From: an uncultured Elusimicrobiaceae bacterium
GTDB taxonomy: Bacteria > Elusimicrobiota > Elusimicrobia > Elusimicrobiales > UBA9959
DNA: 64,000 nucleotides
Reading direction: 5' to 3'
Assembly (NCBI GenBank): GCA_964415175.1
Contig: CAYPYG010000003.1
Coordinates: 65,586-129,585, forward strand
Within the stretch, counting starts at the first letter, position 1, and every line of letters begins with the position of its first letter. A program made the position numbers and the translations under genes. Positions 3 through 11,865 of the stretch are shown piece by piece. The notes beneath the pieces are model-generated. The model worked only from the letters and a program-made list of their open reading frames with translations, ran no database searches and was not told the DNA's origin.

Positions 3-791
3 CTGCCGGACCTGCCCAAGATAATAAAGCTGGCCGCGAAGATCGGCTATCCCTGGATACAGGTGATGAGCAACGGCCTGAGGCTGGCCGATAAGGCCTA
101 TACGCGCTCCCTGATAGGGGCCGGGGCCAACCTGTTCCGCCTTTCGCTGCACGGCCCCGGGCCGGAGATACACGACCGGCTCGTCGGGGTGGACGGCGCC
201 TTCGCGAAGCTGACGGCCGCTTTCGGCAATATCAGGGAAGGCGGCGCCGAGCTCTGCGTCAACATGGCGCTCAACGCCCCCAATTACAGGTCGCTGCCGG
301 AGATGCTCGGACTGATAACCGGGCGTTTCGGCGTGCGCGACTTCAACATCATCTTCCCTCATTACAGCGGCATGATGGCCAGGAACGCGGACCTGCTCAA
401 GGTCAGCGTCACCAGGGCCGTGCCGTACCTGAGGAAGGCATTGGCGCTTCTGAAGGAGACCGGCGTACGCCCGGAGAGCCGGATACTCATAAATTTCTGC
501 CCCTGCAATATACCCGAGGCGGCCCACCTGATGGCGGAATGGGACCGCCCGGAGCGGGCGGAGGACGACGAGCCGCTCTACTACGTGGAGGGGAAGACCG
601 ACGCCGTTTACTCGGTCAAGGAACGCATACGGGTAAAGAACAAGTCCTGTTCCCGCTGCGTCTACGACAAGGTCTGCATGGGTTTCGAGAAATGGTACGC
701 CGACGTTTTCGGCCGCCGCGAGTTCCGCCCCGTACTCCGCAAGCCGGCCCCTTTCCCGCTGCGGCCGCTGCCCCGCCGGAAAGTCGCCTGA
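3..791 (+). CDS. Radical SAM protein, C-terminal portion (5' end outside window)
   Basis: The frame is open from base 3 (LPDLPKIIKLAAKIGYPWIQVMSNGLRL), so the GTG at 63 is internal. It has barrel-like strands (VMSNG, RLSLHG). The C-terminal NFCPCN...CSRCVYDKVCMG (Cx2Cx5C) tail is shared with 6508-7434 and with the tail of 50095-51885. Confidence 0.6.
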   Translation: MPDLPKIIKLAAKIGYPWIQVMSNGLRLADKAYTRSLIGAGANLFRLSLHGPGPEIHDRLVGVDGAFAKLTAAFGNIREGGAELCVNMALNAPNYRSLPEMLGLITGRFGVRDFNIIFPHYSGMMARNADLLKVSVTRAVPYLRKALALLKETGVRPESRILINFCPCNIPEAAHLMAEWDRPERAEDDEPLYYVEGKTDAVYSVKERIRVKNKSCSRCVYDKVCMGFEKWYADVFGRREFRPVLRKPAPFPLRPLPRRKVA

Positions 792-876: not shown

Positions 877-3378
877 GTGGAGAACATAGTATTTTTCGGC
901 AAAGGCGGCATCGGTAAAAGCACCATCGCCGCCAATGTTTCCGTCCTGCTGGCCGCCGCCGGCCGGAAGGTCCTGCATATCGGCTGCGACCCTAAGCGCG
1001 ATTCGACGCTCGCGCTGACCGGCCGCCGCATAAAGCCTTTCAGCGACGGCGGTTTCGCCGGCGCGGCCGCCCTGGCCGGCGCCGTTCACAAGGGCGCGAA
1101 GGGAATAGACTGCATAGAGGCCGGCGGTCCCCAGGCCGGCGTGGGGTGCGCGGGCGCAGGGATCGGGGCCATGCTCGACGCCGTGCGGGATTCCGGGCTG
1201 ATGGAGCGCAACGCCTACGATACCGTGATCTTCGACGTGCTGGGGGACGTGGTCTGCGGCGGTTTCGCCGCGCCGTTGCGGCGCGGTTTCACCAGCAAGG
1301 CCGTCATCGTAGTCTCCGAGGAGATCCTTTCCCTTTACGCCGCCAACAACCTGGTGGCGATGATAAACAACTACGCCAGGAACGGCGTGTACCTGGCCGG
1401 CCTGGCCGTCAACGCCAAGGATATTTCCGCCGTCCGCCGGACCGAGGAATTCGCAAGGGCCGTCGATACGCGGGTGCTGGGCGTGATACCGCGGGACCCG
1501 GCCGTCGGCAGGGCGGAGAAGGCCCGCAAGCCGGTCGTGCTGCTGGACCCGCGCAGCCCCGCCGCCGGCGCCCTGGCCGGGCTGACGAGGGGGATAATTT
1601 CCTCCGGGAAGCCGGCTTCACCGCCCCGCATGATGAGCGAGCGCGAATTCGAATCCTTTATAGGCGGCGCGGCGGCGGACGAGTCCCGGACCGGTCCCGC
1701 CCCGTCGGGGCGGCCGGCGCCGGTCCCGCCGCCGGCCCTGCTGGCCGCCGCCGGTTTCTCCGTGACGGGTCTCCTGGGCGGCCAGGTCGTATGCGCCTGG
1801 AAGAAGGGGGACGACGCCTGCAAGGTCTTCGTGGCCCCGCTCTCGGAGATCAGGCCCGGCATGACATCCGTCTCCGACTGGGCCTTCTGCTTCGCGCCGG
1901 GCGAAGAGCCGCGCGGCGACAGGGCTGCGTTCGAGTCCGCCGTGCGGGGGATCTCGGCGCTCCGCTTCGATGATTTCGTGGCGGCTTTCAGCGGAGGTCC
2001 GGATTTTTACGGCGACGCCGATTCCTTCGGCCGCACCGGTTACCATCCCCGCCTGCCGGAAGGCGACCGTCCCATAGACCAGCATACCGGCTTCGGCCAG
2101 TGGCACAGGTTCGTGTTCTCCGATAATTCAGGGGTCTGCGTCCCCCCGGGCACGGTCATAGTGGAGCACGGCGATATCGAGTGCCGCTTCAGCAGCTGTT
2201 CCAGCACCCTGCTCAATACTTTCCAGAAAATGGGGGGGCTCGCCAACGATCAGGCCCCGTCGATGGCGCCGTTCCTGCCCAAGGAAGGCTCGACCGTGAT
2301 GAACACGGATTTCGGTTACGGCGACGCCATACGGGGGGACGAGCGCAAGATGGCCGGGAGACTGGCCGCCGTCAAGACCAGGGGCAGCGCCGGGGGCCTG
2401 CTGGAGTTCTACAACGGCTGTTCGCCGCTGCTGCTCTCCAGCGACGTGAACAGTTTCCTGGAAAAGGCCTCGCGCGACCTCGGGATGGAAGTGCTGCGCG
2501 ACAATTTCAATAATTTCGAGGACGCCACTCCCGAGAAGGTCCGCGCGCGCGCGGCGCTGGTAGTCCGCCGGCTGGCCGCCCTGCGGAGGACGAAGCCGTC
2601 CTGCGATCTCAACCTCGTCAATTTCGCGTCATCCAAGGCGCTGCCGCTGGCGGACCTGCTCGCCGGGCGCGGTCTGTCGGCTGCCCCTCCCGAACGGGAC
2701 TTTTACGGTGATATCGCCGCCTCCCGCCTGCAGGTGCTGGCCTATCCGGACCCGGTGCTGACCACCGCCTTCGACGAGCTGAAGATAAAATGGACGGCGC
2801 CGCCGGCCCCCTACGGCTTCGCCGCCACCGAGGCCTGGCTGAGGGAACTCTTCGCCAGGCTCGGGCGCAAGGCGCCGCGCGGCGGCCTGGGGCCTTCCGC
2901 CGCGGAGGCCGCGGGCCGCTCCGCTCTTAAGAAGCGGCTTTCCCGCTTCGCGGCCGGATTCATCGCCTCTCCCGACGAGATCCCCACTCTGGAGGGGACC
3001 TGGGCGGTATCGGGAGTGCCGATGTTCTCGCTGCTGCGGGAAGCGGGCATGCCGGTGCGCCTTTTCGCCTATGCGCGGGACCGGGCGGCCCGGACGCTGG
3101 CCGTGAAAGAAGCGGGACTGCTCGGCAAGAGGACCGGCGCGAGGCCGAGGCTGCTCTTTTTCGATTCTCCCGCCGGTCTTCGCCGCGCGCTGTCGGCCGA
3201 CCGGACCATGCGCATAGTCTACTCCGACATCCCCGGCGACGCGCGGCTGGCCGAGGCGGGGAAGAACGATTTTTCGGCCGCCATGTGCGAACCGGGTTAC
3301 GAAGGGACCATAGAGACGATGCGCCGCCTGGCGAACCTTTGCGAATGGGAGTTCAATGAGCGATACGGCCGCCGATAA
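877..3378 (+). CDS. NifH-like Fe-protein/ATPase domain fused to NifD/NifE/BchN-like component-1 domain (copy 1)
   Basis: N-terminal ~255 aa carry P-loop GKGGIGKST, switch I CDPKRDST, and both Fe-protein cluster-Cys contexts (GGPQAGVGCAGAGIG and FDVLGDVVCGGFAAPLR). A P/A-rich linker follows. The C-terminal ~560 aa have component-1-like motifs VEHGDIECRF and FYNGCSPLLLSSD. GTG start with GAGGAGAG RBS. The same architecture recurs at 17215 and 21023. Confidence 0.85.
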   Translation: MENIVFFGKGGIGKSTIAANVSVLLAAAGRKVLHIGCDPKRDSTLALTGRRIKPFSDGGFAGAAALAGAVHKGAKGIDCIEAGGPQAGVGCAGAGIGAMLDAVRDSGLMERNAYDTVIFDVLGDVVCGGFAAPLRRGFTSKAVIVVSEEILSLYAANNLVAMINNYARNGVYLAGLAVNAKDISAVRRTEEFARAVDTRVLGVIPRDPAVGRAEKARKPVVLLDPRSPAAGALAGLTRGIISSGKPASPPRMMSEREFESFIGGAAADESRTGPAPSGRPAPVPPPALLAAAGFSVTGLLGGQVVCAWKKGDDACKVFVAPLSEIRPGMTSVSDWAFCFAPGEEPRGDRAAFESAVRGISALRFDDFVAAFSGGPDFYGDADSFGRTGYHPRLPEGDRPIDQHTGFGQWHRFVFSDNSGVCVPPGTVIVEHGDIECRFSSCSSTLLNTFQKMGGLANDQAPSMAPFLPKEGSTVMNTDFGYGDAIRGDERKMAGRLAAVKTRGSAGGLLEFYNGCSPLLLSSDVNSFLEKASRDLGMEVLRDNFNNFEDATPEKVRARAALVVRRLAALRRTKPSCDLNLVNFASSKALPLADLLAGRGLSAAPPERDFYGDIAASRLQVLAYPDPVLTTAFDELKIKWTAPPAPYGFAATEAWLRELFARLGRKAPRGGLGPSAAEAAGRSALKKRLSRFAAGFIASPDEIPTLEGTWAVSGVPMFSLLREAGMPVRLFAYARDRAARTLAVKEAGLLGKRTGARPRLLFFDSPAGLRRALSADRTMRIVYSDIPGDARLAEAGKNDFSAAMCEPGYEGTIETMRRLANLCEWEFNERYGRR

Positions 3379-4669
3379 AGTTTTCGAAAGGACTTACCAG
3401 CTGCCTTACCTGCTGGGGGTTTTCATGGCCGTCAACGCCGTGCGGGACGCCTGCCTGGTCGTGGACTCTCCCAACTGCGCTATGGTCAAGGCCGACCTGA
3501 TAGCCGGCAACCACGACCTCTTTTCCACGCTCCTCTCCCCCTCGGGCCGCCACCGCGTGGCCTGTACCATGGTGACCCCTTTCACCCCGCAGAAGAACCC
3601 GGAGAAAAGGGTGGCCGCCATACTGAACAGCATCGCCGGCTCCGGTGAATTCGGCGCCGTCCTGCTCACCGGCCTTCCTTTCGGCTGGCTGGCCGGGATG
3701 GATTACGACGGGATCGCGGCGGCCGTGCCGCCCGGTGTCCCGGCCGCCGCCGTTCCCGCAAAATCGATGGACCTGGACTGGTTGGAAGGCTACGACCTTT
3801 CGCTGGAGGCGCTGGCGCGCTCCCTGCGGTTCCCCGCCAGGCCCCGGCGCGCCGCCGGCAAGGTCGCCCTCGCGGGCTATATGCTGGACCGCAACGAGTT
3901 CGACCACGCGGCCAATCTGAAGGAACTTGAGAGGCTGCTGGCGCTCGCCGGCCTGGAACTCGTCTCCGTCTGGCCCTCCGGCGGCGGCGTGGCGGAACTC
4001 GCGAGGGCCGCCGAAGCTTCGCTGATCGTCTCGCTCCCCTACGGCCGACGGGCCGCCAGGACGCTGGCGGGGAGGACCGGGGCAAAGCTCCTGGAGACCG
4101 GGCTCCCCATGGGCCTGGGCGGCACTTCCGCCTGGCTGGCCGCCGTGAGAAAGGCCGCCGGGCTGAAAGGCGGACCTCCTCCCGCGCTGGCGGAGGCCGA
4201 ACGGGCCGCGGCGGCCGCGCTGGCCCCGGCGCTGCGGGTGCTCCGCAACCGGAACGTCCTCTTTGCCGGCGACCCCCATCTCTACTCCGCGTTCTCCTCG
4301 TTCGCGGCGGAACTCTGCGTCGGCGTGCCGGCGGCCCTGCTGGGCTCCTCCTCCAGAACGCTCGGCCCTTCCGCCGGACGGGCTGAGACCGTTCTCTTCG
4401 CCCCCTCCGCGTCCGAGGCGAGGTCCGCCCTGGCCGCCCTGCCGCGCTACCGCAAACCGGACCTGGCCGTGGCCAATTCTTTCGCCGTTACGGAGGGCTT
4501 CGCCGAAGGGCTGCCTTTCGTCGAGCTGGGTTTCCCGTCCTACGGGCATCACTGTCTTCTCGACGAACCTTATTTCGGCTATGCCGGCGCGCGCGTCCTG
4601 GCGGCGCGCATGCTGAACGCTCTGCAGGCGGGCCTGGCGGCGCCGTCTTTCAGGGAAAGAGGATTCTGA
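3356..4669 (+). CDS. NifK/NifN/BchB-like component-1 type subunit (copy 1)
   Basis: 437 aa with VVDSPNCAMVKADLIAGNHDLFSTLL, RVACTMV, LTGLPF and ELGFPSYGHHCL. It is clearly paralogous to 19661-20959 and 23644-24945. The ATG lies 23 nt inside the upstream gene. Confidence 0.7.
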   Translation: MSDTAADKVFERTYQLPYLLGVFMAVNAVRDACLVVDSPNCAMVKADLIAGNHDLFSTLLSPSGRHRVACTMVTPFTPQKNPEKRVAAILNSIAGSGEFGAVLLTGLPFGWLAGMDYDGIAAAVPPGVPAAAVPAKSMDLDWLEGYDLSLEALARSLRFPARPRRAAGKVALAGYMLDRNEFDHAANLKELERLLALAGLELVSVWPSGGGVAELARAAEASLIVSLPYGRRAARTLAGRTGAKLLETGLPMGLGGTSAWLAAVRKAAGLKGGPPPALAEAERAAAAALAPALRVLRNRNVLFAGDPHLYSAFSSFAAELCVGVPAALLGSSSRTLGPSAGRAETVLFAPSASEARSALAALPRYRKPDLAVANSFAVTEGFAEGLPFVELGFPSYGHHCLLDEPYFGYAGARVLAARMLNALQAGLAAPSFRERGF

Positions 4670-4724: not shown

Positions 4725-5549
4725 TCAGGGGAAGGGCGAGTAGACCAGCCTGTCTATGTTCAGCGCGGCCAGCTGCCTTTCCGAAGAATAGAACCTCTCC
4801 GGGAATTCCAGGAACACGGCGTTCCCTCTTATCAGCAGCTTTTCCTTTATCATCGGATGCCTGAGCTCGAAATGGCCTATCAGGCACTCGCGCGAGCAGC
4901 CCGGAGCGCGCCGCGCGCCGCCGGGAGGGTCGTCGCGCAGGCCGACGGGGCAGGCCCGCGTCGCCGTCAGGTCCAGGTACGGGTAGTGGAGAGTGACGCG
5001 GAAAGAGCGCCGGTCGAAGCCGTAACGCCGGCCTTCGCGGAAATTGGAAAGAGGCAGGGTCCCTATGGCGGGTATCTCGAAGCGGGTTATCCCTATCGAG
5101 CGGAAGAACTCCAGCGCCGCGCCGTTGTGGACTTTCAGCGGCTTGCCGGTGGTGTCGAAAACGTTGTCGCGCAGCAGGCGCCCCGCGTTAAGCCGGAACG
5201 GCAGCCGGCGCTTCGCCGCGAGTTCGACGGCACCGAAATCATTGACCGTGATCTCGAGCCCGGCCGGGCGCAGGCGGCCTTTCGCGGCCAGGGCCGCCAA
5301 TTCCGCGAAGACGCGGTCCAGCTTCGCCGCCCCGCGCTCCCCCAGCATGGGCGTGAGCAGGCAGACCTTCTTGCCCAGTCCGGACAGCCGGACGGCCTCG
5401 CGGCAGAGCGACTCGTCCAGCAGTTCCTCGCAGAATTCCGGTCCGATGTAGACGCGGGAGAAGCCGCGCAGCGCGTCCTCCGGCGCCCCGGTCCCGAGAA
5501 GGGAGTCCAGGGAGACGGGGCCGAGCCTGATCCCCTTTTCGACGGCCAT
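4725..5549 (-). CDS. U32-family-like protein, putative small partner subunit (UbiV-like)
   Basis: Start chosen at ATG 5549 (MAVEKGIRLG), 3 nt after the upstream stop. Contains RVYIGPEFCEELL and a Cys group TRACP...GCSRECL. About 274 aa, directly downstream of a clearer U32 gene. The longer track ORF to 5900 is read-through in another frame. Confidence 0.5.
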   Translation of the reverse strand: MAVEKGIRLGPVSLDSLLGTGAPEDALRGFSRVYIGPEFCEELLDESLCREAVRLSGLGKKVCLLTPMLGERGAAKLDRVFAELAALAAKGRLRPAGLEITVNDFGAVELAAKRRLPFRLNAGRLLRDNVFDTTGKPLKVHNGAALEFFRSIGITRFEIPAIGTLPLSNFREGRRYGFDRRSFRVTLHYPYLDLTATRACPVGLRDDPPGGARRAPGCSRECLIGHFELRHPMIKEKLLIRGNAVFLEFPERFYSSERQLAALNIDRLVYSPFP

Positions 5550-5551
5550 CG

Positions 5552-6499
5552 TCAAAGCCCTCCCCCGTTCCAGCGGGACATCTCCGCTATGAATTCCCGC
5601 CTGGCCGCGGCCGCGGGAAGGCGCGCGCGCAGGCCTTCCGCCAGGGAGATCATCGCGCGCATGGCCCTCACCTTGGAGACCTTCGCCGCGGGCGCGTCGC
5701 GCCGCGTGCCGTATTTGAGGTAACCGACGCCCGCCGAGAGGAGATCGAAGAAGGCGGCGGCGTCCGAGAATCGCGGCGCTCCGCACGGCGTCAGCCGGCG
5801 CTCGAGGCGCGCGAGGAGGGCGGGGAGTTCCGCCGCCCGGCGGGGCAGCTCCGGGGGGAGCGGGCGCACGAGCCCGCCGGCGCCGGCCGAGACCCGGCAC
5901 ATGGCCCCTTCCGGCAGGCCGCGCCGGGTCGTGTAATGTCCCGGCTTGTGCAGCTGGCAGCGGCCGTTCACGTAGACGCAGCCGAAGAAACGGTAGTCGA
6001 AGATCTCGGTCTCTATCCCGCGCTCCCGGCAGAAAGCGAGCAGCGGCCCGGCTTCGCGGGGGTCCAGCTGGTTGGGCAGTATGAACCGGGAGACGCCGAA
6101 CCGGGAGAAGAAGGCCGCGGCGCGGCTGTTGAAGACCGGCTGCACGGAGCTCAGGTGCAGGGCGGCGCGCAGTTTCCGCCCCGGGGCCGAGAACATCCGC
6201 AGCAGGTAAGGACTGGCGAATATGAACGAGTCGGCCCCGGCCTCGTCGAGACGGCGCACGCTCTTTTCCACGGCGGCCAGCCGCCGTACCGTGGCGGTGG
6301 CCAGCAGGGCGTTGACGGCGACGGAGATCTTCCTGCCCAGGGAGTGCGCCAGCCTGATGGCCCCGGGCAGGCGGGCGAGCGGCAGCTCTCCGGAGTGGAA
6401 AGCCGGGAGCTCCCGGGCGGCCGTATAGAATTCGTCGGCACCCGCTTCGGCGAGCGGCCCGAGTTCCTTTATGTCCGAAAAACAGGAGACTATCTTCAT
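5552..6499 (-). CDS. Peptidase-U32-family protein (UbiU/RlhA/TrhP-like putative Fe-S enzyme)
   Basis: Start at ATG 6499 (MKIVSCFSDIKELGPLAEAGADEFYTA). Contains GRKISVAVNAL. EIFDYRFFGCVYVNGRCQLH is a near match to the U32 signature (C-x4-G-x-C-x-L). About 315 aa. The track ORF to 6925 overlaps the upstream gene out of frame. Confidence 0.75.
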   Translation of the reverse strand: MKIVSCFSDIKELGPLAEAGADEFYTAARELPAFHSGELPLARLPGAIRLAHSLGRKISVAVNALLATATVRRLAAVEKSVRRLDEAGADSFIFASPYLLRMFSAPGRKLRAALHLSSVQPVFNSRAAAFFSRFGVSRFILPNQLDPREAGPLLAFCRERGIETEIFDYRFFGCVYVNGRCQLHKPGHYTTRRGLPEGAMCRVSAGAGGLVRPLPPELPRRAAELPALLARLERRLTPCGAPRFSDAAAFFDLLSAGVGYLKYGTRRDAPAAKVSKVRAMRAMISLAEGLRARLPAAAARREFIAEMSRWNGGGL

Positions 6500-6507
6500 G
6501 CCGGGGC

Positions 6508-7434
6508 TCACTGGAAAGGCTCGGGTCTTATCGCCGCCGGGTCGAGGGAGGAAGCGGAGAGTTCCGACCTGCCGTGCACGCGCAGGTAATCCTTTCTGGC
6601 GCCGCAGCAGGCCGGCTCCAGGCGGCAGCGGGAGCAGGCGGCGCACGCGGCCTTGCCGGCCACCCCCGCCTCCAGGACCCGGTCGCCGCGTCTCCAGCGG
6701 TGGAACTCGAAGGAGAACCCTTCGAAGTTCCCGAGGCGGCAGAGCGGGAAGTTCTGGACCACGGCCCTGATCCCGGCGAGTTTCAGCCGGCCGAGCGCCA
6801 GTTTGAGGTACGGTTCGACCTCGGAGTAGCGGGGCACGAGTTCCGCGCTGTCCGCGACCCGTCCCGCGTTGCGCACGAAAGTGAAATTCACGAAGGCCAG
6901 GTCCGGCAGCGCGCCGGCCGTCCACTCCGCGAAGGCCGGCAGGCGGCGGTAATTGCCGCGGTAGATGATATGGAAGAGCCTGATCCTGTCCGCGGCCCCC
7001 ATGGCTTTAAGATTTTCGAGGCCTTTCATGGCCAGGGGGAACTTCACGCTCCGGGTGGCGTGCGCGTAGGTCCTCTCGTCGGCCCCGGGCAGGTTCACCG
7101 TGAAATAGTCTATCTCCTTAACTGCCTTCCGGCAGAATGCCGGGTCGGACAGCGCCACGCCGTTCGTCGAGAGCATGAAACGCCGCACCCCGGCCTTTTT
7201 CAGCGCGGCCACCCAGTCGAAGAAATCGTTCCCGGCGGTCGGCTCGCCTCCGCCCTCCAGGCTGACCGCTTCTATCCGCCGCCGCCGCACTTCGGCCAGG
7301 ACCTTGTTCAGCGGCGCCGCCGGTTCGCCCCTGGGCGGGCTCTGGCAGCAGCGGCAATAGAGGTTGCAGGTGCGGGCCATCGGCACGCACAACTGCTCGC
7401 TGATCCAGCTTTTGTCCCCGGTCTTCCGCTTCAC
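6508..7434 (-). CDS. Radical SAM protein (small, MoaA/PqqE-like core with Cx2Cx5C tail)
   Basis: CNLYCRCC (CxxxCxxC) near the N-terminus, plus SLEGGGEPT and LSTNG. The C-terminal NFPLCRLG...CAACSRCRLEPACCG resembles the tail of the 3-791 product. Its stop lies 9 nt upstream of the U32 start. Confidence 0.8.
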   Translation of the reverse strand: MKRKTGDKSWISEQLCVPMARTCNLYCRCCQSPPRGEPAAPLNKVLAEVRRRRIEAVSLEGGGEPTAGNDFFDWVAALKKAGVRRFMLSTNGVALSDPAFCRKAVKEIDYFTVNLPGADERTYAHATRSVKFPLAMKGLENLKAMGAADRIRLFHIIYRGNYRRLPAFAEWTAGALPDLAFVNFTFVRNAGRVADSAELVPRYSEVEPYLKLALGRLKLAGIRAVVQNFPLCRLGNFEGFSFEFHRWRRGDRVLEAGVAGKAACAACSRCRLEPACCGARKDYLRVHGRSELSASSLDPAAIRPEPFQ

Positions 7435-7474
7435 GAGCGTATTCTATCATTTCAGGCCGGCCCGGCAGGGGAGT

Positions 7475-7506
7475 AAAAAAAAGCCCCCGGGGAGCCGGGG
7501 GCTTTC
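7475..7506 (-). terminator. Rho-independent terminator (bidirectional hairpin) after ygeW-like gene
   Basis: GCCCCCGG (7483-7490) / loop GGAG / CCGGGGGC (7495-7502). On the minus strand it is followed by an 8-T run (A-run 7475-7482 on plus). It lies 25-55 nt downstream of the stop at 7530. Confidence 0.75.
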
Positions 7507-7529: not shown

Positions 7530-8741
7530 TCAGCGCGCGCGCCTGCCGCCGGCCTTGAGGAGTTCCGCCAGCAGTTTCGCCGGGTCCTTCTTTGTGCAGG
7601 CGGTTATCATCGCGGCGATGATGAAAGGCTTGTAGCCGGCTTCCTTGTAGGTGCCGATGCGGGCCTTTTCGAAGACGCTCGCGCTCACCTCGCCCGCCTT
7701 GCAGCTGACGCCGGTGATATCGGCCGGCAGGCAGTGCATGTACACGGCCTTGCCTCCCTTCGTGAGCTTCATCTTCGCCTCGTCGCATTCCCAGCTCTTG
7801 AACTTCGCGTTGTTCTCCAGGCACTCCTTCTCCAGCGCCTTGAGACCGGCCTGGTCGCCATTCTCGAGCAGCTGCGTGCGGCGCTCCATCACCTTGAACG
7901 GGGCCCAGCTCTTTGGATAGACGATGTCGGCGTCCTTGAAGGCGCTCTCCATGCTGTTCGATACCTTGAAGCTGCCGCCGGACTTTTTAGCGTGCTTCTT
8001 CGCGACCTCGATGGTGTCGGGCAGCAGGTCGTAGCCCTCGGGGTAGGCCAGCTCCACCTCCATGCCGAAGCGGCTCATCAGCGTGATGACGCCCTGCGGC
8101 ACCGAGAGCGGCTTGCCGTAACTGGGCGAGTAGGCCCAGGTCATGGCTATTTTTTTGCCCTTGAGCTTGTCGAAGCCGCCGAAATGGTTCTTGATGAACA
8201 GCAGGTCGGACATGCTCTGCGTCGGGTGGTCGAGGTCGCACTGGAGGTTGACCACGGCCGGGCGCTGGTTGAGCACGCCCTGCTTATGGCCGTCGTCGAG
8301 GGCTTCGGCGACTTCCTTCATGTAGGTGTGGCCCTTGCCGATGAACATGTCGTCGCGGATGCCGACGGCCTCGGTCAGGAAGGAGATCATGTTGGCGGTC
8401 TCGCGCACGGTCTCGCCGTGGGCTATCTGCGACTTGCCCTCGTCGAGGTCCTGCACGGCCAGTCCGAGCAGGTTGCAAGCGCTGGCGAAGGAGAAGCGGG
8501 TGCGGGTGGAGTTGTCGCGGAAGTTGGAGACGGCCAGGCCGGTCTCGAACATGCGCGCGCTGATATTGCGGGCGTGCATCTCTTTCAGTATCTCGGCGAT
8601 CTTGAGCACCGAGTGTATCTCGGCGTCGTTCTTCTGCCAGGTCAGCAGGAAGTCCTTGTGGTAGAGGTCGGCGTCGAGTTTTTTCAGCTCGGCGATGGCC
8701 TTCTCGAGGTCGAATTTCTGCGTCTTGGTGGCGGTGGGCAT
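7530..8741 (-). CDS. ygeW: YgeW-type (knotted) carbamoyltransferase
   Basis: 403 aa. There is strong recognisable similarity to E. coli YgeW along the whole length: KDFLLTW, FRDNSTRTRFSFASA, LDEGKSQIAHGETVRETANMISF, NLQCDLDHPTQSM, KKIAMTWAYSPSYGKPLSVPQG, YMHCLPADI. Confidence 0.9.
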   Translation of the reverse strand: MPTATKTQKFDLEKAIAELKKLDADLYHKDFLLTWQKNDAEIHSVLKIAEILKEMHARNISARMFETGLAVSNFRDNSTRTRFSFASACNLLGLAVQDLDEGKSQIAHGETVRETANMISFLTEAVGIRDDMFIGKGHTYMKEVAEALDDGHKQGVLNQRPAVVNLQCDLDHPTQSMSDLLFIKNHFGGFDKLKGKKIAMTWAYSPSYGKPLSVPQGVITLMSRFGMEVELAYPEGYDLLPDTIEVAKKHAKKSGGSFKVSNSMESAFKDADIVYPKSWAPFKVMERRTQLLENGDQAGLKALEKECLENNAKFKSWECDEAKMKLTKGGKAVYMHCLPADITGVSCKAGEVSASVFEKARIGTYKEAGYKPFIIAAMITACTKKDPAKLLAELLKAGGRRAR

Positions 8742-8783
8742 GTTTTTTCTCCTGAATGATATCCTTAAAAAGGCTCCTCCGTC

Positions 8784-8797
8784 GGCGCCCGGGCGCC
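8784..8797. repeat. 14-bp perfect palindrome GGCGCCCGGGCGCC in divergent intergenic region
   Basis: Self-complementary by inspection. It lies between the divergent starts at 8741 (-) and 8845 (+). Its function (operator or 5'-UTR hairpin) is unknown. Confidence 0.3.
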
Positions 8798-8810
8798 CGG
8801 ATGCTTAATG

Positions 8811-8842
8811 GATTAAATATATTGTATCGTTTTATTGTCAAG
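8811..8842 (+). promoter_or_regulatory. AT-rich promoter-like element upstream of 8845
   Basis: Sequence gattaaatatattgtatcgttttattgtcaagg has ATTGTA at 8821-8826 and ATTGTC at 8834-8839, immediately upstream of ATG 8845. It is the same motif class as 846-851, 13004-13009 and 30705-30710. Confidence 0.3.
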
Positions 8843-8844
8843 GT

Positions 8845-9516
8845 ATGCGCTTTTTAATTCTCGCGTCCATAACCATTTTCTCCTTTTACGGCTGCTCCCC
8901 CGCGACCTACCGGCTGGGACCGGACGCCCACGCGGATTTCGCCGCCCTGACCTCTCCTCTCACGGAGGGGCGGGACTATTCCGTGGAGGTCTATGACCGC
9001 GGCGCGGAGGTGACTGTCCTGGCGCCTCACGGCGGCGACCTGGAGCGCGGCACCTCGCGCCTGGCCCGGTCCGTGGCCGGCGCCGACTGGAACCTCTATA
9101 TCTTCAACGCCTGGCTGGGGCGGGGCAGCGGCCGGCTGCACCTGACCTCGGCCAATTTCGACGACCCCCGGGCCCTGGACCTGGCGGGCCGCTCCCGGCT
9201 CGCCGTCTCGCTGCACGGCCAGGCCGAGAAGGGCAGATGGGTCTGCGTCGGCGGCGCCAACGCGGAGGCCGGCCGGCTGGTGTCGGAGGCGCTGGAAAAG
9301 GCCGGTTTCAGGACGCAGTTCCCCTGCCGGCGCCTGCCCGGCCGCTCGCCCCGGAACCTGACCAACCGGGCCGCCGCCGGCGGCGTACAGCTGGAAGTCA
9401 GCCTCTCCCTCCTGCGGGAACTTGATAAAGGGGGGGAGGATTTACCAGAATTTACGCTCGCCGTCAGGAAAGGCCTGTCGGCCGCTTTAAAGAGCATCAA
9501 GGAGACTCCCAGATGA
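8845..9516 (+). CDS. Lipoprotein, poly-gamma-glutamate hydrolase-like (DUF867/PghP-like) family
   Basis: Lipobox-like signal MRFLILASITIFSFYGCS. Contains VLAPHGGDLERGTS, LAVSLHG and GGVQLEVS, motifs typical of the DUF867/PghP zinc hydrolase fold. Confidence 0.65.
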   Translation: MRFLILASITIFSFYGCSPATYRLGPDAHADFAALTSPLTEGRDYSVEVYDRGAEVTVLAPHGGDLERGTSRLARSVAGADWNLYIFNAWLGRGSGRLHLTSANFDDPRALDLAGRSRLAVSLHGQAEKGRWVCVGGANAEAGRLVSEALEKAGFRTQFPCRRLPGRSPRNLTNRAAAGGVQLEVSLSLLRELDKGGEDLPEFTLAVRKGLSAALKSIKETPR

Positions 9517-10613
9517 AAAAGATAAGGATATTCGCTTTCGGCGGCAACGAGGTGGCCCCGGTCGGCCTCAAGGACAAGGACGGCAGGACCATCAATCCCG
9601 ATATCGCCATGCAGTGGCAGCGCACCGCCGAGACCGGCAAGCTGGTGGCCGACATCTTCGAGAAACACCCCGAAGACAGGTACGTCATCACTCACGGCAA
9701 CGGCCCGCAGGTCGGCAATATCCTGCAGCGCGCCGAGATGTGCCGCCCGACGCTCTTCCCGCTGCCGCTCGACGTCTGCGTGGCCGATACGCAGGGAGCC
9801 ATGTCCTTCATGATGGCCCAGCTCAACAATGAGCTCAATATCCGCGGCATCGACAATATCCTGGCCGGCGTCGTGACGCAGGTCGTGGTCAACAAGGACG
9901 ACCCGGATTTCAAGAACCCCTCCAAGTACGTCGGCCAGTCCTATACCGCCGAGGAGGCGAAGCGGCGCCAGGCCGAGGGCTGGGTCATGAAGATGTACAA
10001 GAAGGACGCCGCCGGCAACGAGATCTGGCGCCGCGTCGTGCCCTCCCCGGCCCCGGTGGACATCGTCGAGATAGACGCCATCGAGGCCCTGCTGGAGAAG
10101 GGCATAGTGCCGATAACCGTCGGCGGCGGCGGCATCCCCGTGCGCGAGGTGCCGGTCGAGATACAGGACGGCAAAGAGGTTTACTCCACCAATTACGGCG
10201 TGAAGTTCTCCCGCCCCCACAAGGGCGGCAAGCCGCTCAAGATGTACACCGGCGTGGAGGCCGTCATCGACAAGGACCTGGCCAGCGCCCTGCTGGGCTG
10301 CATGCTGATGAAGCGCGCCAAAGCCCGCGGCGAAAAGGTCGAGGTAAGCCTGACCATCTTCACCGGCGAGGACGGCGCCAAGCTCAATTACCAGAAACCC
10401 GACGAGAAGGCGCTGCGCGTCATAAAGGTCTCGGAGCTGGAGGAGATCTACAACCGGAAGCCGGCCCCGTTCCCGCCTGGCTCGATGGGCCCCAAGATCA
10501 AGGCCGTGATAGAGTTCATCAAGAACGGCGGTTCGGTGGCCTATATCTCCAAGACCGAGCTGTTCGAGGAGACGCTCGCGGGCAAGGCCGGCACCACCGT
10601 CCTGCCGGGCTGA
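9513..10613 (+). CDS. Carbamate kinase family protein (ArcC/YqeA-like)
   Basis: Contains IFAFGGNEV, VITHGNGPQVGNIL, ITVGGGGIPV and AVIDKDLASALL. The ATG overlaps the upstream stop (ATGA at 9513-9516). It neighbours ygeW as in the E. coli ygeW-yqeA region. Confidence 0.8.
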   Translation: MKKIRIFAFGGNEVAPVGLKDKDGRTINPDIAMQWQRTAETGKLVADIFEKHPEDRYVITHGNGPQVGNILQRAEMCRPTLFPLPLDVCVADTQGAMSFMMAQLNNELNIRGIDNILAGVVTQVVVNKDDPDFKNPSKYVGQSYTAEEAKRRQAEGWVMKMYKKDAAGNEIWRRVVPSPAPVDIVEIDAIEALLEKGIVPITVGGGGIPVREVPVEIQDGKEVYSTNYGVKFSRPHKGGKPLKMYTGVEAVIDKDLASALLGCMLMKRAKARGEKVEVSLTIFTGEDGAKLNYQKPDEKALRVIKVSELEEIYNRKPAPFPPGSMGPKIKAVIEFIKNGGSVAYISKTELFEETLAGKAGTTVLPG

Positions 10614-10623
10614 GGCGCGAACG

Positions 10624-11865
10624 ATGAAAAAAATAAAAACCCTGCAGTGCATACACTGCGGCAAGGACCATAAGCTTTCGGAGACCAGGTACAACTGCGT
10701 CGCCTGCGGCGGCAACCTGCAGGTGCTCTACGATTACAACCTGGTGAAGAAGCGGCTCAACTACGAGGTCCTCAAGGAGAACTGGGACCGCAGCATCTGG
10801 CGCTACGCGGAGCTGCTGCCGCTGCCCAACCTCAAGCATATCCCGCCGGTGCAGATAGGCTGGACGCCCCTCTACAGGGCCGAGAAGCTGGGCCAGACGA
10901 TAAACGTGCCCAACCTTTTCGTGAAGGACGACGGCCGCAACCCGTCGGCCTCGTTCAAGGACCGCGCCAACGCGGTGGTGGTGGCGCGCGCGATGGACCA
11001 GAAAGAGAAGGTCATTACGACCGCTTCCACCGGCAACGCCGCCTCCTCGCTGGCCTGCCTGACAGGGAGCCTGGACATCTCTACCGTCATTTTCATGCCC
11101 GAGAACGCGCCGCCGGCCAAGATCGCGCAGGTGCTGGTCTTCGGCGCGACGGTCATCCTGGTCAGGGGCAATTACGACGACGCCTTCGACCTCTGCCTCA
11201 AGGCCAGCCGCGAGTACGGCTGGTATAACCGCAGCACCGGCTACAACCCCTTCACGCGCGAGGGCAAGAAGACCTGCGCCTTCGAGATCTGCGAACAGCT
11301 CAAGTGGGAGGTGCCGGACAAGGTCGTAGTGCCCGTCGGGGACGGCAACATCATAAGCGGCGTCTGGAAGGGCTTCGTGGAGTTCCAGAACCTGGACATC
11401 ATCGAGAAGCTGCCGCAGCTGATAGCCGTGCAGGCCGAGGGCAGCGACGCCGTCAAGCGCGCCTTCGAGTCCGGCGCCGACATACAGGCCGTGAGCGGGA
11501 AAACGCTGGCCGACAGCATCTCCGTCTGCGTGCCGCGCGACGGGCAGGCCGCCGTAGGCGCGATAAAGGATTCCGGCGGCTTCGCGGTCTCGGTCACCGA
11601 CGACGAGATCCTGGCCGCCATACCCGAGCTGGCCCGCGGCTCCAACGTTTTCGCCGAGCCCGCCGGGGCCGCCTCCTGGGCGGGCCTCAAGAAGGCCGCC
11701 GCGCAGGGCCTGGTCAAAGAGAACGAGAGCGTGGTCCTGCTGGTCACGGGCAGCGGGCTCAAGGACGTCGGCGCCGCCATGAAGTCCGTCGGCAAGCCGC
11801 ACGTGATAAAGCCCGACCTCGGCGAGCTGAAGAAGCTGGTCTCCGGGCTGAAACTGCCGGCCTGA
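10624..11865 (+). CDS. Threonine-synthase-like PLP-dependent enzyme with N-terminal zinc ribbon
   Basis: CIHCG...CVACGG zinc ribbon followed by LQVLYDY. PLP-lysine motif NPSASFKDRA and glycine loop TASTGNAASSLA. The short ThrC-type layout. Confidence 0.75.
   Translation: MKKIKTLQCIHCGKDHKLSETRYNCVACGGNLQVLYDYNLVKKRLNYEVLKENWDRSIWRYAELLPLPNLKHIPPVQIGWTPLYRAEKLGQTINVPNLFVKDDGRNPSASFKDRANAVVVARAMDQKEKVITTASTGNAASSLACLTGSLDISTVIFMPENAPPAKIAQVLVFGATVILVRGNYDDAFDLCLKASREYGWYNRSTGYNPFTREGKKTCAFEICEQLKWEVPDKVVVPVGDGNIISGVWKGFVEFQNLDIIEKLPQLIAVQAEGSDAVKRAFESGADIQAVSGKTLADSISVCVPRDGQAAVGAIKDSGGFAVSVTDDEILAAIPELARGSNVFAEPAGAASWAGLKKAAAQGLVKENESVVLLVTGSGLKDVGAAMKSVGKPHVIKPDLGELKKLVSGLKLPA

What the first reader, a model, noticed from the sequence alone, without database searches (positions are those of the whole stretch)
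4725..7434. Opposite-strand sub-operon: small rSAM plus a two-gene U32 pair sized like UbiU/UbiV
Three tightly spaced minus-strand genes (7434-6508, 6499-5552, 5549-4725) converge on Nif-like pair 1. The middle gene nearly matches the U32 signature (C-x4-G-x-C-x-L), and the last is a smaller, more divergent U32-like protein with clustered Cys. U32 proteins are now known as Fe-S enzymes for O2-independent hydroxylation: UbiU/UbiV in ubiquinone synthesis, RlhA on rRNA, and TrhP on tRNA. A heteromeric pair here suggests an anaerobic hydroxylation step on the locus product.
Basis: partly seen in the sequence, partly recalled or inferred. Interest (0 to 1): 0.65.

Follow-up and report, generated by a model that had tools for sequence, protein, structure and literature searches.

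The report
rSAM plus UbiU/UbiV-like U32 pair operon
Three tightly packed genes in an uncultured Elusimicrobia genome encode a radical-SAM enzyme and a two-protein iron-sulfur pair resembling the oxygen-free hydroxylase UbiU/UbiV, and this trio repeatedly sits beside the uncharacterised 'group VI' nitrogenase-like genes, which gives a new clue to what that pathway makes.

Summary
Window 7434-6508, 6499-5552 and 5549-4725 (minus strand) are three real genes with 8-nt and 2-nt spacers. They converge on a NifK-like gene.

- **Gene 1** is a radical-SAM enzyme with an auxiliary Cys cluster.
- **Gene 2** is a genuine U32 protein. It passes the Pfam threshold, its best named model is UbiU, and its predicted fold has the U32 structure 5D88 as top hit.
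- **Gene 3** has no Pfam family. Several weak tests link it to UbiV (E about 1e-6). It carries four invariant Cys in the UbiV-type pattern (CXnCX17CX3C) and lies next to a U32 gene in 32 of 33 species loci (the other is cut by its contig end).

The trio is conserved across Elusimicrobia: 29 of 31 assessable species loci. It lies next to group VI Nif-like genes in six different gene arrangements, including a relative with only about 30% identity. That link is not universal: Nif-like genes are within 10 kb in 5 of 33 species loci, and the trio is adjacent in 8 of 28 Nif-centred contigs. The more constant neighbour is an HxsC/HxsD-like rSAM cluster (23 of 33). Some relatives carry the trio among housekeeping genes.

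Verdict: a new subfamily of UbiU/UbiV-like heteromeric U32 enzymes with a dedicated rSAM partner. Anaerobic hydroxylation of a pathway intermediate is plausible but inferred. The association is not mentioned in the papers I could check.

The parts
6508..7434 (-). Gene 1: small radical-SAM enzyme (308 aa, GTG start). It has the CX3CX2C motif (C23/C27/C30) and a C-terminal auxiliary Cys set (C232, C267, C270, C276; twitch/SPASM-like).
   Evidence: Pfam Radical_SAM, 48.4 bits. Best NCBIfam model is HxsC at 62.7 bits, far below its 267.9 cutoff. The seven Cys are invariant in 31 orthologues. An orthologue (52-91% identity) lies directly upstream of the pair in 29 of 31 assessable loci.
5552..6499 (-). 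Gene 2: UbiU-type U32 Fe-S protein (315 aa). Family-invariant residues are E165, C157, C174, C181 and C201. C239 is present here but variable in the family.
   Evidence: Pfam Peptidase_U32, 46.8 bits against a 22.4 cutoff, covering profile positions 2-106 of 233. NCBIfam UbiU 49 bits, TrhP 29.7 bits. BLASTP to E. coli UbiU: E 2e-9, with C174 and C181 aligned to C169 and C176. hhalign: 97% probability. AF2 model top PDB hit is 5D88, a U32 peptidase, E 4.7e-8. Cys conservation.
4725..5549 (-). Gene 3: UbiV-like partner (274 aa) with no Pfam family. It has four invariant Cys, C40...C200-x17-C218-x3-C222. The predicted fold is a (beta-alpha)8 barrel, a Cys loop and a small C-terminal beta domain.
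   Evidence: No Pfam hit. NCBIfam PRK15447 (U32 type) E 0.004, matched by 12 of 42 family members. BLASTP to UbiV: E 3e-6. hhalign A1 against UbiV: 84% probability, E 7e-6, 201 columns, with C40 aligned to C39 and C200 to C180. Superfamily HMM hits only UbiV among 45 targets. AF2 model pLDDT 80. Foldseek against PDB gives only generic TIM barrels.
7479..7506 (-). Strong terminator-like hairpin with a T-run, downstream of ygeW and upstream of gene 1. It marks the 5' boundary of the trio as its own transcription unit.
   Evidence: Terminator scan: 12-pair stem, 8 GC pairs, T8 tail. Sequence shown.
7441..7449 (-). Possible extended -10 element, TGATAGAAT, 6 nt upstream of the GTG start of gene 1. 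This is tentative. It would imply a leaderless or very short-leader transcript.
   Evidence: Read directly from the sequence. The sigma-70 consensus scan did not call it.
877..3378 (+). Context: NifH-NifD-like fusion (833 aa; group VI Nfl pair 1). With the next gene it forms the operon on which the trio converges.
   Evidence: Pfam Fer4_NifH (220 bits, residues 3-260) plus Oxidored_nitro (residues 425-739). Best NCBIfam model is CfbC.
3356..4669 (+). Context: NifK/BchN-like subunit (437 aa). Its stop lies 55 nt from the stop of gene 3 (convergent).
   Evidence: Pfam Oxidored_nitro, 120 bits. Orthologues lie next to the trio in L008, L019, L043, L055 and L024.

Best explanation
**Shown**
- The three genes form one translationally coupled operon.
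- They encode a small radical-SAM enzyme with an auxiliary Fe-S site, a UbiU-type U32 protein, and a UbiV-type partner.
- Each of the last two proteins has four invariant Cys.

**Inferred by analogy with E. coli UbiU-UbiV**
- Proteins 2 and 3 form a heterodimer carrying two [4Fe-4S] clusters.
- The heterodimer catalyses an O2-independent hydroxylation of an sp2 carbon, probably with prephenate as the oxygen donor.
- The clusters carry the two electrons away.
- The rSAM enzyme performs a neighbouring radical step on the same substrate.

**Inferred from gene neighbourhoods**
- The module is a mobile but recurrent part of the Elusimicrobia super-cluster. That super-cluster combines group VI nitrogenase-like reductases (NflHD-NflK), many paralogous rSAM enzymes and HxsD-like proteins.
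- The substrate is therefore most likely an intermediate of that pathway. Others have proposed that the pathway builds a modified tetrapyrrole-type cofactor.
- The trio's most constant neighbour is the rSAM/HxsD part. The Nif-like genes are a frequent but dispensable addition.
For: **Operon anatomy:**

**U32 identity of gene 2:**

**UbiV-likeness of gene 3:**. As a calibration, genuine UbiV aligns to the gene-2 family only at E 5.8e-6.

**Cys motifs:**. The reference motifs are UbiU CX6CX16CX38C and UbiV CXnCX12CX3C, with the first UbiV Cys outside the U32 domain, each protein binding one [4Fe-4S] in a heterodimer (PMC6747719).

**Link from U32 Fe-S proteins to O2-independent, prephenate-dependent hydroxylation:** PMC10990095 and PMC6599085.

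**Conservation in 33 species loci:** pair 32, trio 29.

**Trio next to Nfl genes, six arrangements:**
- Convergent on NflK_1: window, L008, L019, L043, L055.
- Convergent on NflK_2, with or without an rSAM: L024 twice, L061, L072.
- Divergent from NflHD_2: L021, L057/58, L071.
- Co-directional, NflK_2-AKR-rSAM-trio: L016, L066, L070.
- Co-directional, trio-NflHD-NflK: P0039 locus.
- A distant lineage, L074, with 26-35% identities.

**Statistics and genome level:** 5 of 33 loci with Nfl in reach, against about 2% expected by chance, binomial p about 5e-4. GWF2_62_30 has two trios, each facing its own Nfl operon. Five of 7 trio-bearing genomes listed in Meheust Table S3 have group VI Nfl.

**Other cluster genes:** cluster-type rSAM and related genes lie within 10 kb in 23 of 33 loci.

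**Distant superfamily members:** they also sit with a U32 gene in rSAM-rich clusters.
Against: - No biochemical evidence exists. Hydroxylation, heterodimer formation and prephenate use all rest on analogy.
- Gene 3 fails Pfam U32, and its model does not retrieve 5D88.
- Scores are far below the UbiU and UbiV equivalog cutoffs.
- The fourth UbiU-type Cys is not conserved in the gene-2 family.
- Nfl is absent within 10 kb in 28 of 33 species loci. Long Nfl loci L052, L054 and L059 lack the trio.
- GWA2_61_42 and GWB2_63_16 carry the trio but were scored as lacking group VI Nfl.
- L041, L042 and L004 show the trio or pair among housekeeping genes.
- L006 has the pair without the rSAM, directly upstream of a Pfa-type polyketide/fatty-acid synthase.
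- No UbiT-like, chorismate or prephenate gene is seen nearby.
Confidence: 0.5

Rival explanations
1. The trio is a self-contained module with its own substrate, for example an RNA base as for TrhP, RlhA and the Bacillus YrrN/YrrO pair, or a lipid or quinone. It is unrelated to the Nif-like pathway. Its proximity to Nfl genes in some lineages would reflect only the local clustering of anaerobic Fe-S enzyme genes.
For: - Housekeeping or unrelated neighbours in L041, L042, L004/L028, L025, L026 and L030.
- The trio is present in genomes scored as lacking group VI Nfl.
- B. subtilis yrrN-yrrO is a precedent for a tandem U32 pair acting on tRNA (PMC6599085).
- In L006/L007 the pair directly precedes a Pfa-like synthase.
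- The carrier lineages IV and V are the respiring Elusimicrobia, so a quinone role is conceivable.
Against: - Six different arrangements keep the trio within a few kb of Nfl genes, including a co-directional operon, a duplicated module and a relative at about 30% identity.
- 23 of 33 loci have cluster-type rSAM genes in the flank.
- There is no Peptidase_U32_C domain, and the TrhP score (29.7 bits) is lower than the UbiU score (49 bits).
- No methyltransferase like yrrM is in the operon.
- No ubi, men or UbiT genes are adjacent.
- A dedicated rSAM partner is not part of any known RNA or quinone U32 system.
Confidence: 0.3
2. The rSAM and the U32 pair act on a protein or peptide substrate in a RiPP-like or effector-maturation system. 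The cluster rSAMs resemble HxsC, and HxsD-like genes recur nearby. The pair would hydroxylate an aromatic or imidazole side chain.
For: - The best named model for the trio rSAM and for the 63-791 rSAM fragment is HxsC.
- HxsD (PF27806) genes lie near the trio in L002, L071 and the P0039 locus.
- HxsB and HxsC are now known to mature a protein effector (PMC13128918).
- The trio rSAM has a SPASM/twitch-like auxiliary Cys set.
- Distant pair-containing loci look like peptide or natural-product clusters, with ATP-grasp, GNAT, B12-rSAM and FGE-sulfatase genes.
Against: - HxsC scores are far below cutoff (62.7 against 267.9).
- PADLOC gives no defence-system match beyond generic rSAM similarity.
- I did not find a precursor or HxS-repeat gene, but I did not search for one systematically.
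- CfbC-like NflH, and a tetrapyrrole methylase next to Nfl in L072, point to a small-molecule substrate.
Confidence: 0.12
3. The U32 pair is a true peptidase (a collagenase-type PrtC protease), as the family name suggests, and has nothing to do with hydroxylation.
For: Only the historical family annotation ('U32 family peptidase', 'collagenase-like PrtC'), as in the names given by sources.
Against: - Both proteins have invariant 4-Cys sets typical of the Fe-S U32 enzymes.
- E165 is invariant and matches the essential Glu of TrhP and RlhA.
- There is no signal peptide or protease context.
- The pair is obligately associated with an rSAM enzyme.
- All mechanistically studied U32 proteins with this motif are linked to hydroxylation.
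Confidence: 0.03

Closest known systems
E. coli UbiU-UbiV (YhbU-YhbV), the O2-independent ubiquinone hydroxylase
   Same: - Two adjacent, translationally coupled genes of similar size (315 and 274 aa, against 331 and 292 aa).
- The first is a Pfam U32 protein with the E...C-x6-C core aligned to UbiU C169 and C176.
- The second has the UbiV-specific layout: one Cys far upstream in a Y-x-G-x-x-x-C motif, then C...C-x3-C.
- UbiU and UbiV are the best-scoring named relatives of each protein.
   Different: - Identity is only about 25%, and scores are far below the equivalog cutoffs.
- Spacings differ: CX6CX19 against CX6CX16, and CX17CX3C against CX12CX3C.
- The fourth UbiU Cys is not conserved, while an upstream C157 is invariant.
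- Gene 3 has no detectable Pfam U32 domain.
- A dedicated rSAM gene precedes the pair, and no UbiT (SCP2) gene is present.
- The host is Elusimicrobia, not Proteobacteria.
- The neighbours are Nif-like and rSAM genes rather than ubi genes.
B. subtilis TrhP1/TrhP2 (YrrO/YrrN) and E. coli TrhP and RlhA, the U32 RNA hydroxylases
   Same: U32 Fe-S proteins with an essential Glu and two Cys in the motif. YrrN and YrrO are also a tandem pair, and both are required.
   Different: - No Peptidase_U32_C domain.
- Lower similarity (TrhP model 29.7 bits).
- In Bacillus both partners carry the Pfam U32 motif. Here only one does.
- No co-operonic O-methyltransferase.
- An rSAM partner is present instead.
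Group VI nitrogenase-like (Nfl) / radical-SAM loci of groundwater Elusimicrobia (Meheust et al. 2020)
   Same: The window is such a locus. It has three NifH-NifD fusions, each with a NifK-like gene, and well over a dozen rSAM genes, in a high-GC Elusimicrobia genome 91-96% identical at the protein level to MAG WAS_Bin_5.
   Different: The published description and the 2026 review mention rSAM, B12-binding and HemN_C domains, but no U32 proteins. The trio and its recurrent linkage are therefore not mentioned in the papers I could check.
HXS antiphage system (HxsA-D)
   Same: The trio rSAM and several cluster rSAMs are most similar to HxsC. HxsD-domain genes recur near trios.
   Different: Scores are far below the HxsC cutoff. 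No HxsA-type effector was identified, and PADLOC gives no hit. The HXS system contains no U32 or Nif-like genes.

Membership tests
Radical SAM superfamily (gene 1) | Pfam PF04055 above the gathering score, and a CX3CX2C cluster motif | tested here: met
   48.4 bits against 29.5. C23, C27 and C30 are invariant in 31 orthologues.
HxsC (TIGR03977), His-Xaa-Ser system rSAM maturase (gene 1) | Score at or above the curated cutoff of 267.9 bits | tested here: not met
   62.7 bits. No PADLOC defence hit beyond generic rSAM similarity.
Peptidase_U32 (PF01136), gene 2 | Pfam score at or above the 22.4-bit gathering score | tested here: met
   46.8 bits, although only profile positions 2-106 of 233 are matched. 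The AF2 model's top PDB hit is 5D88, a U32 peptidase, E 4.7e-8.
Peptidase_U32 (PF01136), gene 3 | Pfam score at or above the gathering score | tested here: not met
   No Pfam hit at E <= 0.1. None of 9 sampled distant relatives has one. Remote homology to UbiV and U32 is supported only at E 1e-4 to 1e-6.
UbiU equivalog (NF047963), gene 2 | Score at or above 440 bits | tested here: not met
   49 bits, the best named model.
UbiV equivalog (NF047965), gene 3 | Score at or above 275 bits | tested here: not met
   No hit for the window protein. Two of 42 family members hit weakly. PRK15447 (U32 type) hits 12 of 42, best E 9e-4.
UbiU/UbiV-type heteromeric U32 system | Two adjacent genes that co-occur | tested here: met
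   The pair is adjacent in 32 of 33 species loci, and the remaining locus is truncated. It is also adjacent or near in three distant members.
UbiU/UbiV-type heteromeric U32 system | U subunit with four conserved Cys in the pattern CX6CX16CX38C | tested here: inconclusive
   C174-x6-C181-x19-C201 is invariant. The C232 equivalent (window C239) is present in about 45% of the family. An upstream C157 is invariant and could be the fourth ligand.
UbiU/UbiV-type heteromeric U32 system | V subunit with the pattern CXnCX12CX3C, the first Cys lying far upstream | tested here: met
   C40...C200-x17-C218-x3-C222 are all invariant in 42 sequences. C40 aligns with C39 and C200 with C180. The spacing is x17 rather than x12.
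UbiU/UbiV-type heteromeric U32 system | Associated UbiT (SCP2) factor and ubiquinone pathway context | tested here: not met
   No SCP2 or ubi genes appear in any annotated neighbourhood.
UbiU/UbiV-type heteromeric U32 system | Physical heterodimer with one [4Fe-4S] per subunit, and prephenate-dependent hydroxylation | not testable with these tools
   Needs co-purification, spectroscopy and 18O labelling.
TrhP / RlhA RNA hydroxylases | U32 domain plus the C-terminal Peptidase_U32_C domain, and score at or above the cutoff (534 bits for TrhP) | tested here: not met
   TrhP model 29.7 bits. No PF16325 in either protein.
Group VI Nfl / rSAM locus component | Conserved genomic linkage to NflHD/NflK | tested here: inconclusive
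   Six arrangements were found, with significant enrichment (5 of 33, p about 5e-4) and 8 of 28 Nfl-centred contigs. However, most trio loci have no Nfl within 10 kb, and 2 of 7 genomes were scored Nfl-negative.

The most novel reading that the evidence does not exclude
The trio defines a previously unrecognised class of heteromeric U32-type, O2-independent hydroxylases with a dedicated radical-SAM partner. This class would tailor the still-unknown product of the group VI nitrogenase-like/rSAM pathway. That would be the first U32 hydroxylase acting in cofactor or natural-product biosynthesis rather than on ubiquinone or RNA.

The family of gene 3 would then be the hidden 'V subunit' of such hydroxylases. 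It has about 1,100 clusters at 50% identity, no Pfam or NCBIfam model, and a U32 gene beside it in every context examined. It would mark anaerobic rSAM-rich biosynthetic clusters across bacteria and some archaea.
Probability: 0.3. Interest if true: 0.75.

Novelty: new variant of a known kind. Interest (0 to 1): 0.55.

Why it matters
- A 2026 review states that group VI nitrogenase-like systems have no characterised member and that gene context has so far helped little. A recurrent UbiU/UbiV-like module with its own rSAM partner gives a concrete chemical hypothesis. It suggests an oxygen-free hydroxylation of an unsaturated or aromatic intermediate, perhaps fed by prephenate.
- It also gives a small, expressible three-gene unit to test.
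- Only ubiquinone and two RNA bases are known substrates of U32 Fe-S enzymes, and most U32 subfamilies are unassigned. The UbiV-like partner family found here is large and unannotated. It could be used to locate heteromeric U32 enzymes in anaerobic biosynthetic clusters.
- If the rival reading is right and the module is housekeeping, the finding is still a new U32 subfamily, but of modest interest.

Tried and rejected
- **PDB sequence searches** with both family profiles found nothing.
- **UbiV family profile.** The search used to build it returned only sequences at least 85% identical apart from one 73% hit. The profile-profile test therefore did not improve on the single-sequence result (44% against 84% probability).
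- **Defence-system reading.** PADLOC gave no specific hit.
- **Supplementary text of Meheust et al.** It contains no mention of U32. The figure with the neighbourhoods is an image and could not be read.
- **Chromosome walking beyond 10 kb** was not possible, so 'no Nfl within 10 kb' does not mean none on the contig.
- **A sigma-70 promoter for the trio** was not found by the consensus scan. Only a hand-read extended -10-like element is offered.
- **Peptidase function** was considered and rejected on the basis of the Fe-S motifs.


Full report
**1. The observation**

The window is high-GC (63-74%), so mechanical ORF lists are crowded with spurious frames. They have the codon-position GC signature of real genes: GC3 is 0.85-0.88, against 0.54-0.73 for their 5' extensions and the overlapping plus-strand ORFs.

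They are packed as an operon.
- The rSAM stop is followed by 8 nt and then the next ATG.
- The U32 stop is followed by 2 nt and then the next ATG.
- Upstream lies a strong hairpin with a T8 tail at 7506-7479. It ends the preceding ygeW gene.
- Downstream, the stop of the last gene is 55 nt from the stop of a convergent NifK-like gene at 3356-4669.

The anatomy is as described.

**2. What the three proteins are**

*Gene 1 (308 aa)* is a radical-SAM enzyme (Pfam 48.4 bits).
- Across 31 orthologues the CX3CX2C motif (C23, C27, C30) is invariant.
- A C-terminal set (C232, C267, C270, C276) is also invariant. This is a twitch/SPASM-like auxiliary site.
- Its best named relative is HxsC, but far below the cutoff (62.7 against 267.9 bits).

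*Gene 2 (315 aa)* is a genuine U32 protein.
- Pfam Peptidase_U32 scores 46.8 bits against a 22.4 cutoff, although only the first half of the model is matched.
- Its best named model is UbiU (49 bits, against 29.7 for TrhP).
- BLASTP to E. coli UbiU gives E 2e-9, with C174 and C181 aligned to the UbiU ligands C169 and C176.
- The family profile aligns to UbiU at 97% probability.
- Its AlphaFold model retrieves the only solved U32 structure, 5D88, as top hit (E 4.7e-8).
It also has an invariant E165 that corresponds to the essential Glu of TrhP and RlhA.

- It has no Pfam family, and only a faint NCBIfam hit to a U32-type model (PRK15447, E 0.004).
- Several independent weak tests agree on UbiV:
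  - BLASTP to E. coli UbiV gives E 3e-6 over 161 residues.
  - The 42-sequence family profile against UbiV gives 84% probability, E 7e-6, over 201 columns.
  - Twelve of 42 family members hit PRK15447, and two hit the UbiV model.
  - A 154-sequence superfamily HMM finds UbiV as the only hit among 45 targets, about p = 2e-6.
  - The superfamily profile aligns collinearly with the partner U32 family at E 2e-4.
- As a calibration, genuine UbiV aligns to that same U32 family only at E 5.8e-6. This degree of divergence is therefore normal in the superfamily.
- The AlphaFold model (pLDDT 80) is an eight-fold beta/alpha barrel with a low-confidence Cys loop and a small C-terminal domain. That fits the predicted U32 TIM-barrel fold.
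- Foldseek against PDB gave only generic TIM barrels, and the more informative libraries were unavailable.
- I rate UbiV-type membership of the U32 superfamily at about 0.8. Formal Pfam membership was tested and not met.

**3. The cysteines**

Pelosi et al. showed the following.
- UbiU binds a [4Fe-4S] cluster through C169, C176, C193 and C232 (CX6CX16CX38C).
- UbiV binds one through C39, C180, C193 and C197 (CXnCX12CX3C).
- UbiV is unusual in having its first Cys far upstream, outside the U32 domain.

The gene-3 family has exactly four invariant Cys: C40, C200, C218 and C222 (CXnCX17CX3C).
- C40 sits in a Y-x-G-x-E-F-C motif that aligns with UbiV Y-L-G-E-A-V-C39.
- C200 aligns with C180.

The gene-2 family has invariant C174-x6-C181-x19-C201.
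- The UbiU C232 equivalent is C239 in the window protein. It is present in only about 45% of members.
- An upstream C157 is invariant and may be the fourth ligand.

The pair therefore reproduces the U-type and V-type division of labour, with family-specific differences.

**4. Where it occurs**

- Both proteins belong to families whose named members are all Elusimicrobia MAGs.
- A scan of one genome per species found 33 loci. All the named ones are Elusimicrobia. The closest is MAG WAS_Bin_5, at 91-96% protein identity and fully syntenic with the window.
- The pair is adjacent in 32 of 33 loci, and the remaining locus is cut by a contig end.
- The rSAM orthologue (52-91% identity) lies directly upstream in 29 of 31 assessable loci.

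The trio is a real, conserved module.

**5. Is it linked to the Nif-like genes?**

The window is one of the 'group VI' nitrogenase-like plus rSAM loci described by Meheust et al. 2020.
- It has three NifH-NifD fusions, each with a NifK-like gene, and well over a dozen rSAM genes.
- Neither that paper, its held supplements, nor a 2026 review mentions U32 proteins.
- The review states that group VI has no characterised member.

*Trio-centred view.* Nfl genes lie within 10 kb in 5 of 33 species loci. Roughly 2% is expected by chance, giving p about 5e-4.

*Nfl-centred view.* A metagenome scan with NflK found the trio adjacent in 8 of 28 contigs, most of them short.

*Annotated contexts.* These added three more adjacent cases.

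The linkage survives rearrangement. Six arrangements were found.
- Convergent on NflK_1: window clade.
- Convergent on NflK_2: L024 twice, L061, L072.
- Divergent from NflHD_2: L021, L057/58, L071.
- Co-directional downstream of NflK_2-AKR-rSAM: L016, L066, L070.
- Co-directional immediately upstream of NflHD-NflK in one long operon: P0039 locus.
- A distant lineage, L074. Its pair shares only 26-30% identity and its NflK only 35%, yet the pair still converges on an rSAM-NflK-NflD operon.

GWF2_62_30 has two trios, each facing its own Nfl operon.

Against a strict dependence:
- Most trio loci have no Nfl within 10 kb.
- Long Nfl loci L052, L054 and L059 lack the trio.
- Two of seven trio-bearing genomes in Meheust's Table S3 are scored group VI-negative, although these MAGs are 84-92% complete.
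- L071 and L013 share the same chromosomal site, with and without the Nfl genes.
- More distant relatives carry the trio or pair among housekeeping genes (L041, L042). L006 has the pair next to a Pfa-type synthase.

The more constant neighbour is the rSAM part of the super-cluster. HxsC-like rSAMs, HxsD-domain genes and other homologues of window genes lie within 10 kb in 23 of 33 loci. In L036, L038 and L039 the trio is embedded on the same strand inside such a cluster.

**6. A wider family**

An exhaustive profile search with the gene-3 family found 1,141 cluster representatives at E <= 0.001.
- Most are proteins of 250-270 aa sharing the motifs YFGxEFCE, VNDFG, TTRxC, CxxxC and KGNT.F.
- None of the nine single-domain proteins sampled has a Pfam or NCBIfam family.
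- Three distant members whose contexts could be read all sit with a U32 gene in rSAM-rich clusters. One of these clusters includes Nif D/K-like genes.

Heteromeric U32 pairs therefore appear to be a recurrent component of anaerobic rSAM-rich biosynthetic clusters.

**7. Most likely mechanism**

Shown:
- a coupled three-gene operon;
- a U32 protein and a UbiV-like partner, each with four invariant Cys;
- an rSAM enzyme with an auxiliary site;
- recurrent linkage to rSAM and Nfl genes.

Inferred from UbiU-UbiV, TrhP and RlhA:
- The pair forms a heterodimer with two [4Fe-4S] clusters.
- It hydroxylates an sp2 carbon without O2, probably using prephenate as oxygen donor.
- The rSAM enzyme carries out an adjacent radical step.

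Inferred from context:
- The substrate is an intermediate of the rSAM/Nfl pathway.
- That pathway may act on a tetrapyrrole. NflH is most similar to CfbC, and a tetrapyrrole methylase lies beside Nfl in L072.
- It may instead act on a peptide or protein, given the HxsC/HxsD-like genes and the finding that HxsB and HxsC mature a protein.

I put about 0.5 on this overall reading, about 0.3 on an autonomous module with its own substrate (RNA, lipid or quinone), about 0.12 on a peptide-directed variant, and very little on a true peptidase.

**8. Verdict**

The UbiU/UbiV-like nature of the pair holds, with caveats for gene 3 and for the fourth Cys of gene 2.
- The link to the Nif-like locus is real but facultative.
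- The hydroxylation step is an analogy, not a result.
- This is a new variant of a known kind: a U32 heteropair with a dedicated rSAM partner and an unannotated V-type subunit family.
- It is not mentioned in the papers I could check on these loci.
- It offers a testable handle on an enzyme group that still has no characterised member.

Noticed in passing
window 14149-53351 (both strands): At least 16 paralogous rSAM genes of about 440-730 aa. Most share an N-terminal motif like LEVFLTNRCNLDCSYCSSR. Many overlap start-to-stop by 4 nt (for example 34280, 35833, 37248, 44543, 47280, 48686). This is an unusually large tandem paralogue array.
   Followed up: partly
window 877-3378, 17215-19683, 21023-23644: Three NifH-like domains are each fused to a NifD-like (Oxidored_nitro) domain in one polypeptide of 822-873 aa. 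Each is followed by a NifK-like gene: two overlap the fusion gene by 23 nt, and the third starts on its last base. NflH is most similar to CfbC of F430 synthesis.
   Followed up: partly
window 7530-11865; also L045, L059, L008, L019, L055: An island of ygeW (knotted carbamoyltransferase), a poly-gamma-glutamate hydrolase-like gene, a carbamate-kinase-like gene and a PLP enzyme separates the trio from the rest of the cluster. A ygeW homologue also lies within a few kb of Nfl genes in other contigs (L045, L059).
   Followed up: no
L071 versus L013/L002: The same chromosomal site (HxsD-rSAM-HxsD-hydrolase ... trio-PhoH-BamA-OmpH-LpxD) carries NflHD-NflK in L071. In L013 it carries a barstar/RNase pair in their place, plus a PEP-utilising enzyme downstream of the trio. 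This is an apparent Nfl gain or loss inside an otherwise conserved cluster.
   Followed up: partly
L041 9081-13661: In a lower-GC relative (GC 0.49), one rSAM gene is followed by two tandem U32 plus UbiV-like pairs. The flanking genes are housekeeping (PBP1, HPr kinase, LepA, CysS).
   Followed up: no
L006/L007 9063-20837: The U32 plus UbiV-like pair, without the rSAM, lies directly upstream of a Pfa-type polyunsaturated fatty-acid/polyketide synthase (PfaD-like NMO, KS-AT-ACP-KR, KS-CLF-AT-FabA).
   Followed up: no
L072 8531-9262: A tetrapyrrole methylase (PF00590) and an aminotransferase sit next to NflHD in a locus that also has the trio. This is the only direct tetrapyrrole-related domain seen in any neighbourhood.
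   Followed up: no
P0318 (Nanoarchaeota archaeon, 489 aa): A member of the UbiV-like superfamily is fused to a class I SAM methyltransferase whose best match is the DVU_1556 family. This suggests a hydroxylation-then-methylation logic in some lineages.
   Followed up: no
window 7441-7449 (-): TGATAGAAT, an extended -10-like element, lies only 6 nt upstream of the GTG start of the rSAM gene and just after the ygeW terminator. If it is used, the trio mRNA would be leaderless or nearly so.
   Followed up: no
window 63-791 (+): The HxsC-like rSAM at the left edge lacks its N-terminal CX3CX2C region, and the alignment starts at profile position 104. No in-frame stop lies upstream, so the gene may continue beyond the window's left end. 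If so, the listed GTG is not its start. L008 shows more rSAM genes beyond it.
   Followed up: partly
window 38366-40942 (+) and L013 11360-13021: A PEP-utilising/PPDK_N-type enzyme is part of the window's cluster. A homologue (37% identity) lies directly downstream of the trio in L013. It could phosphorylate a hydroxyl group, but this is speculation.
   Followed up: no
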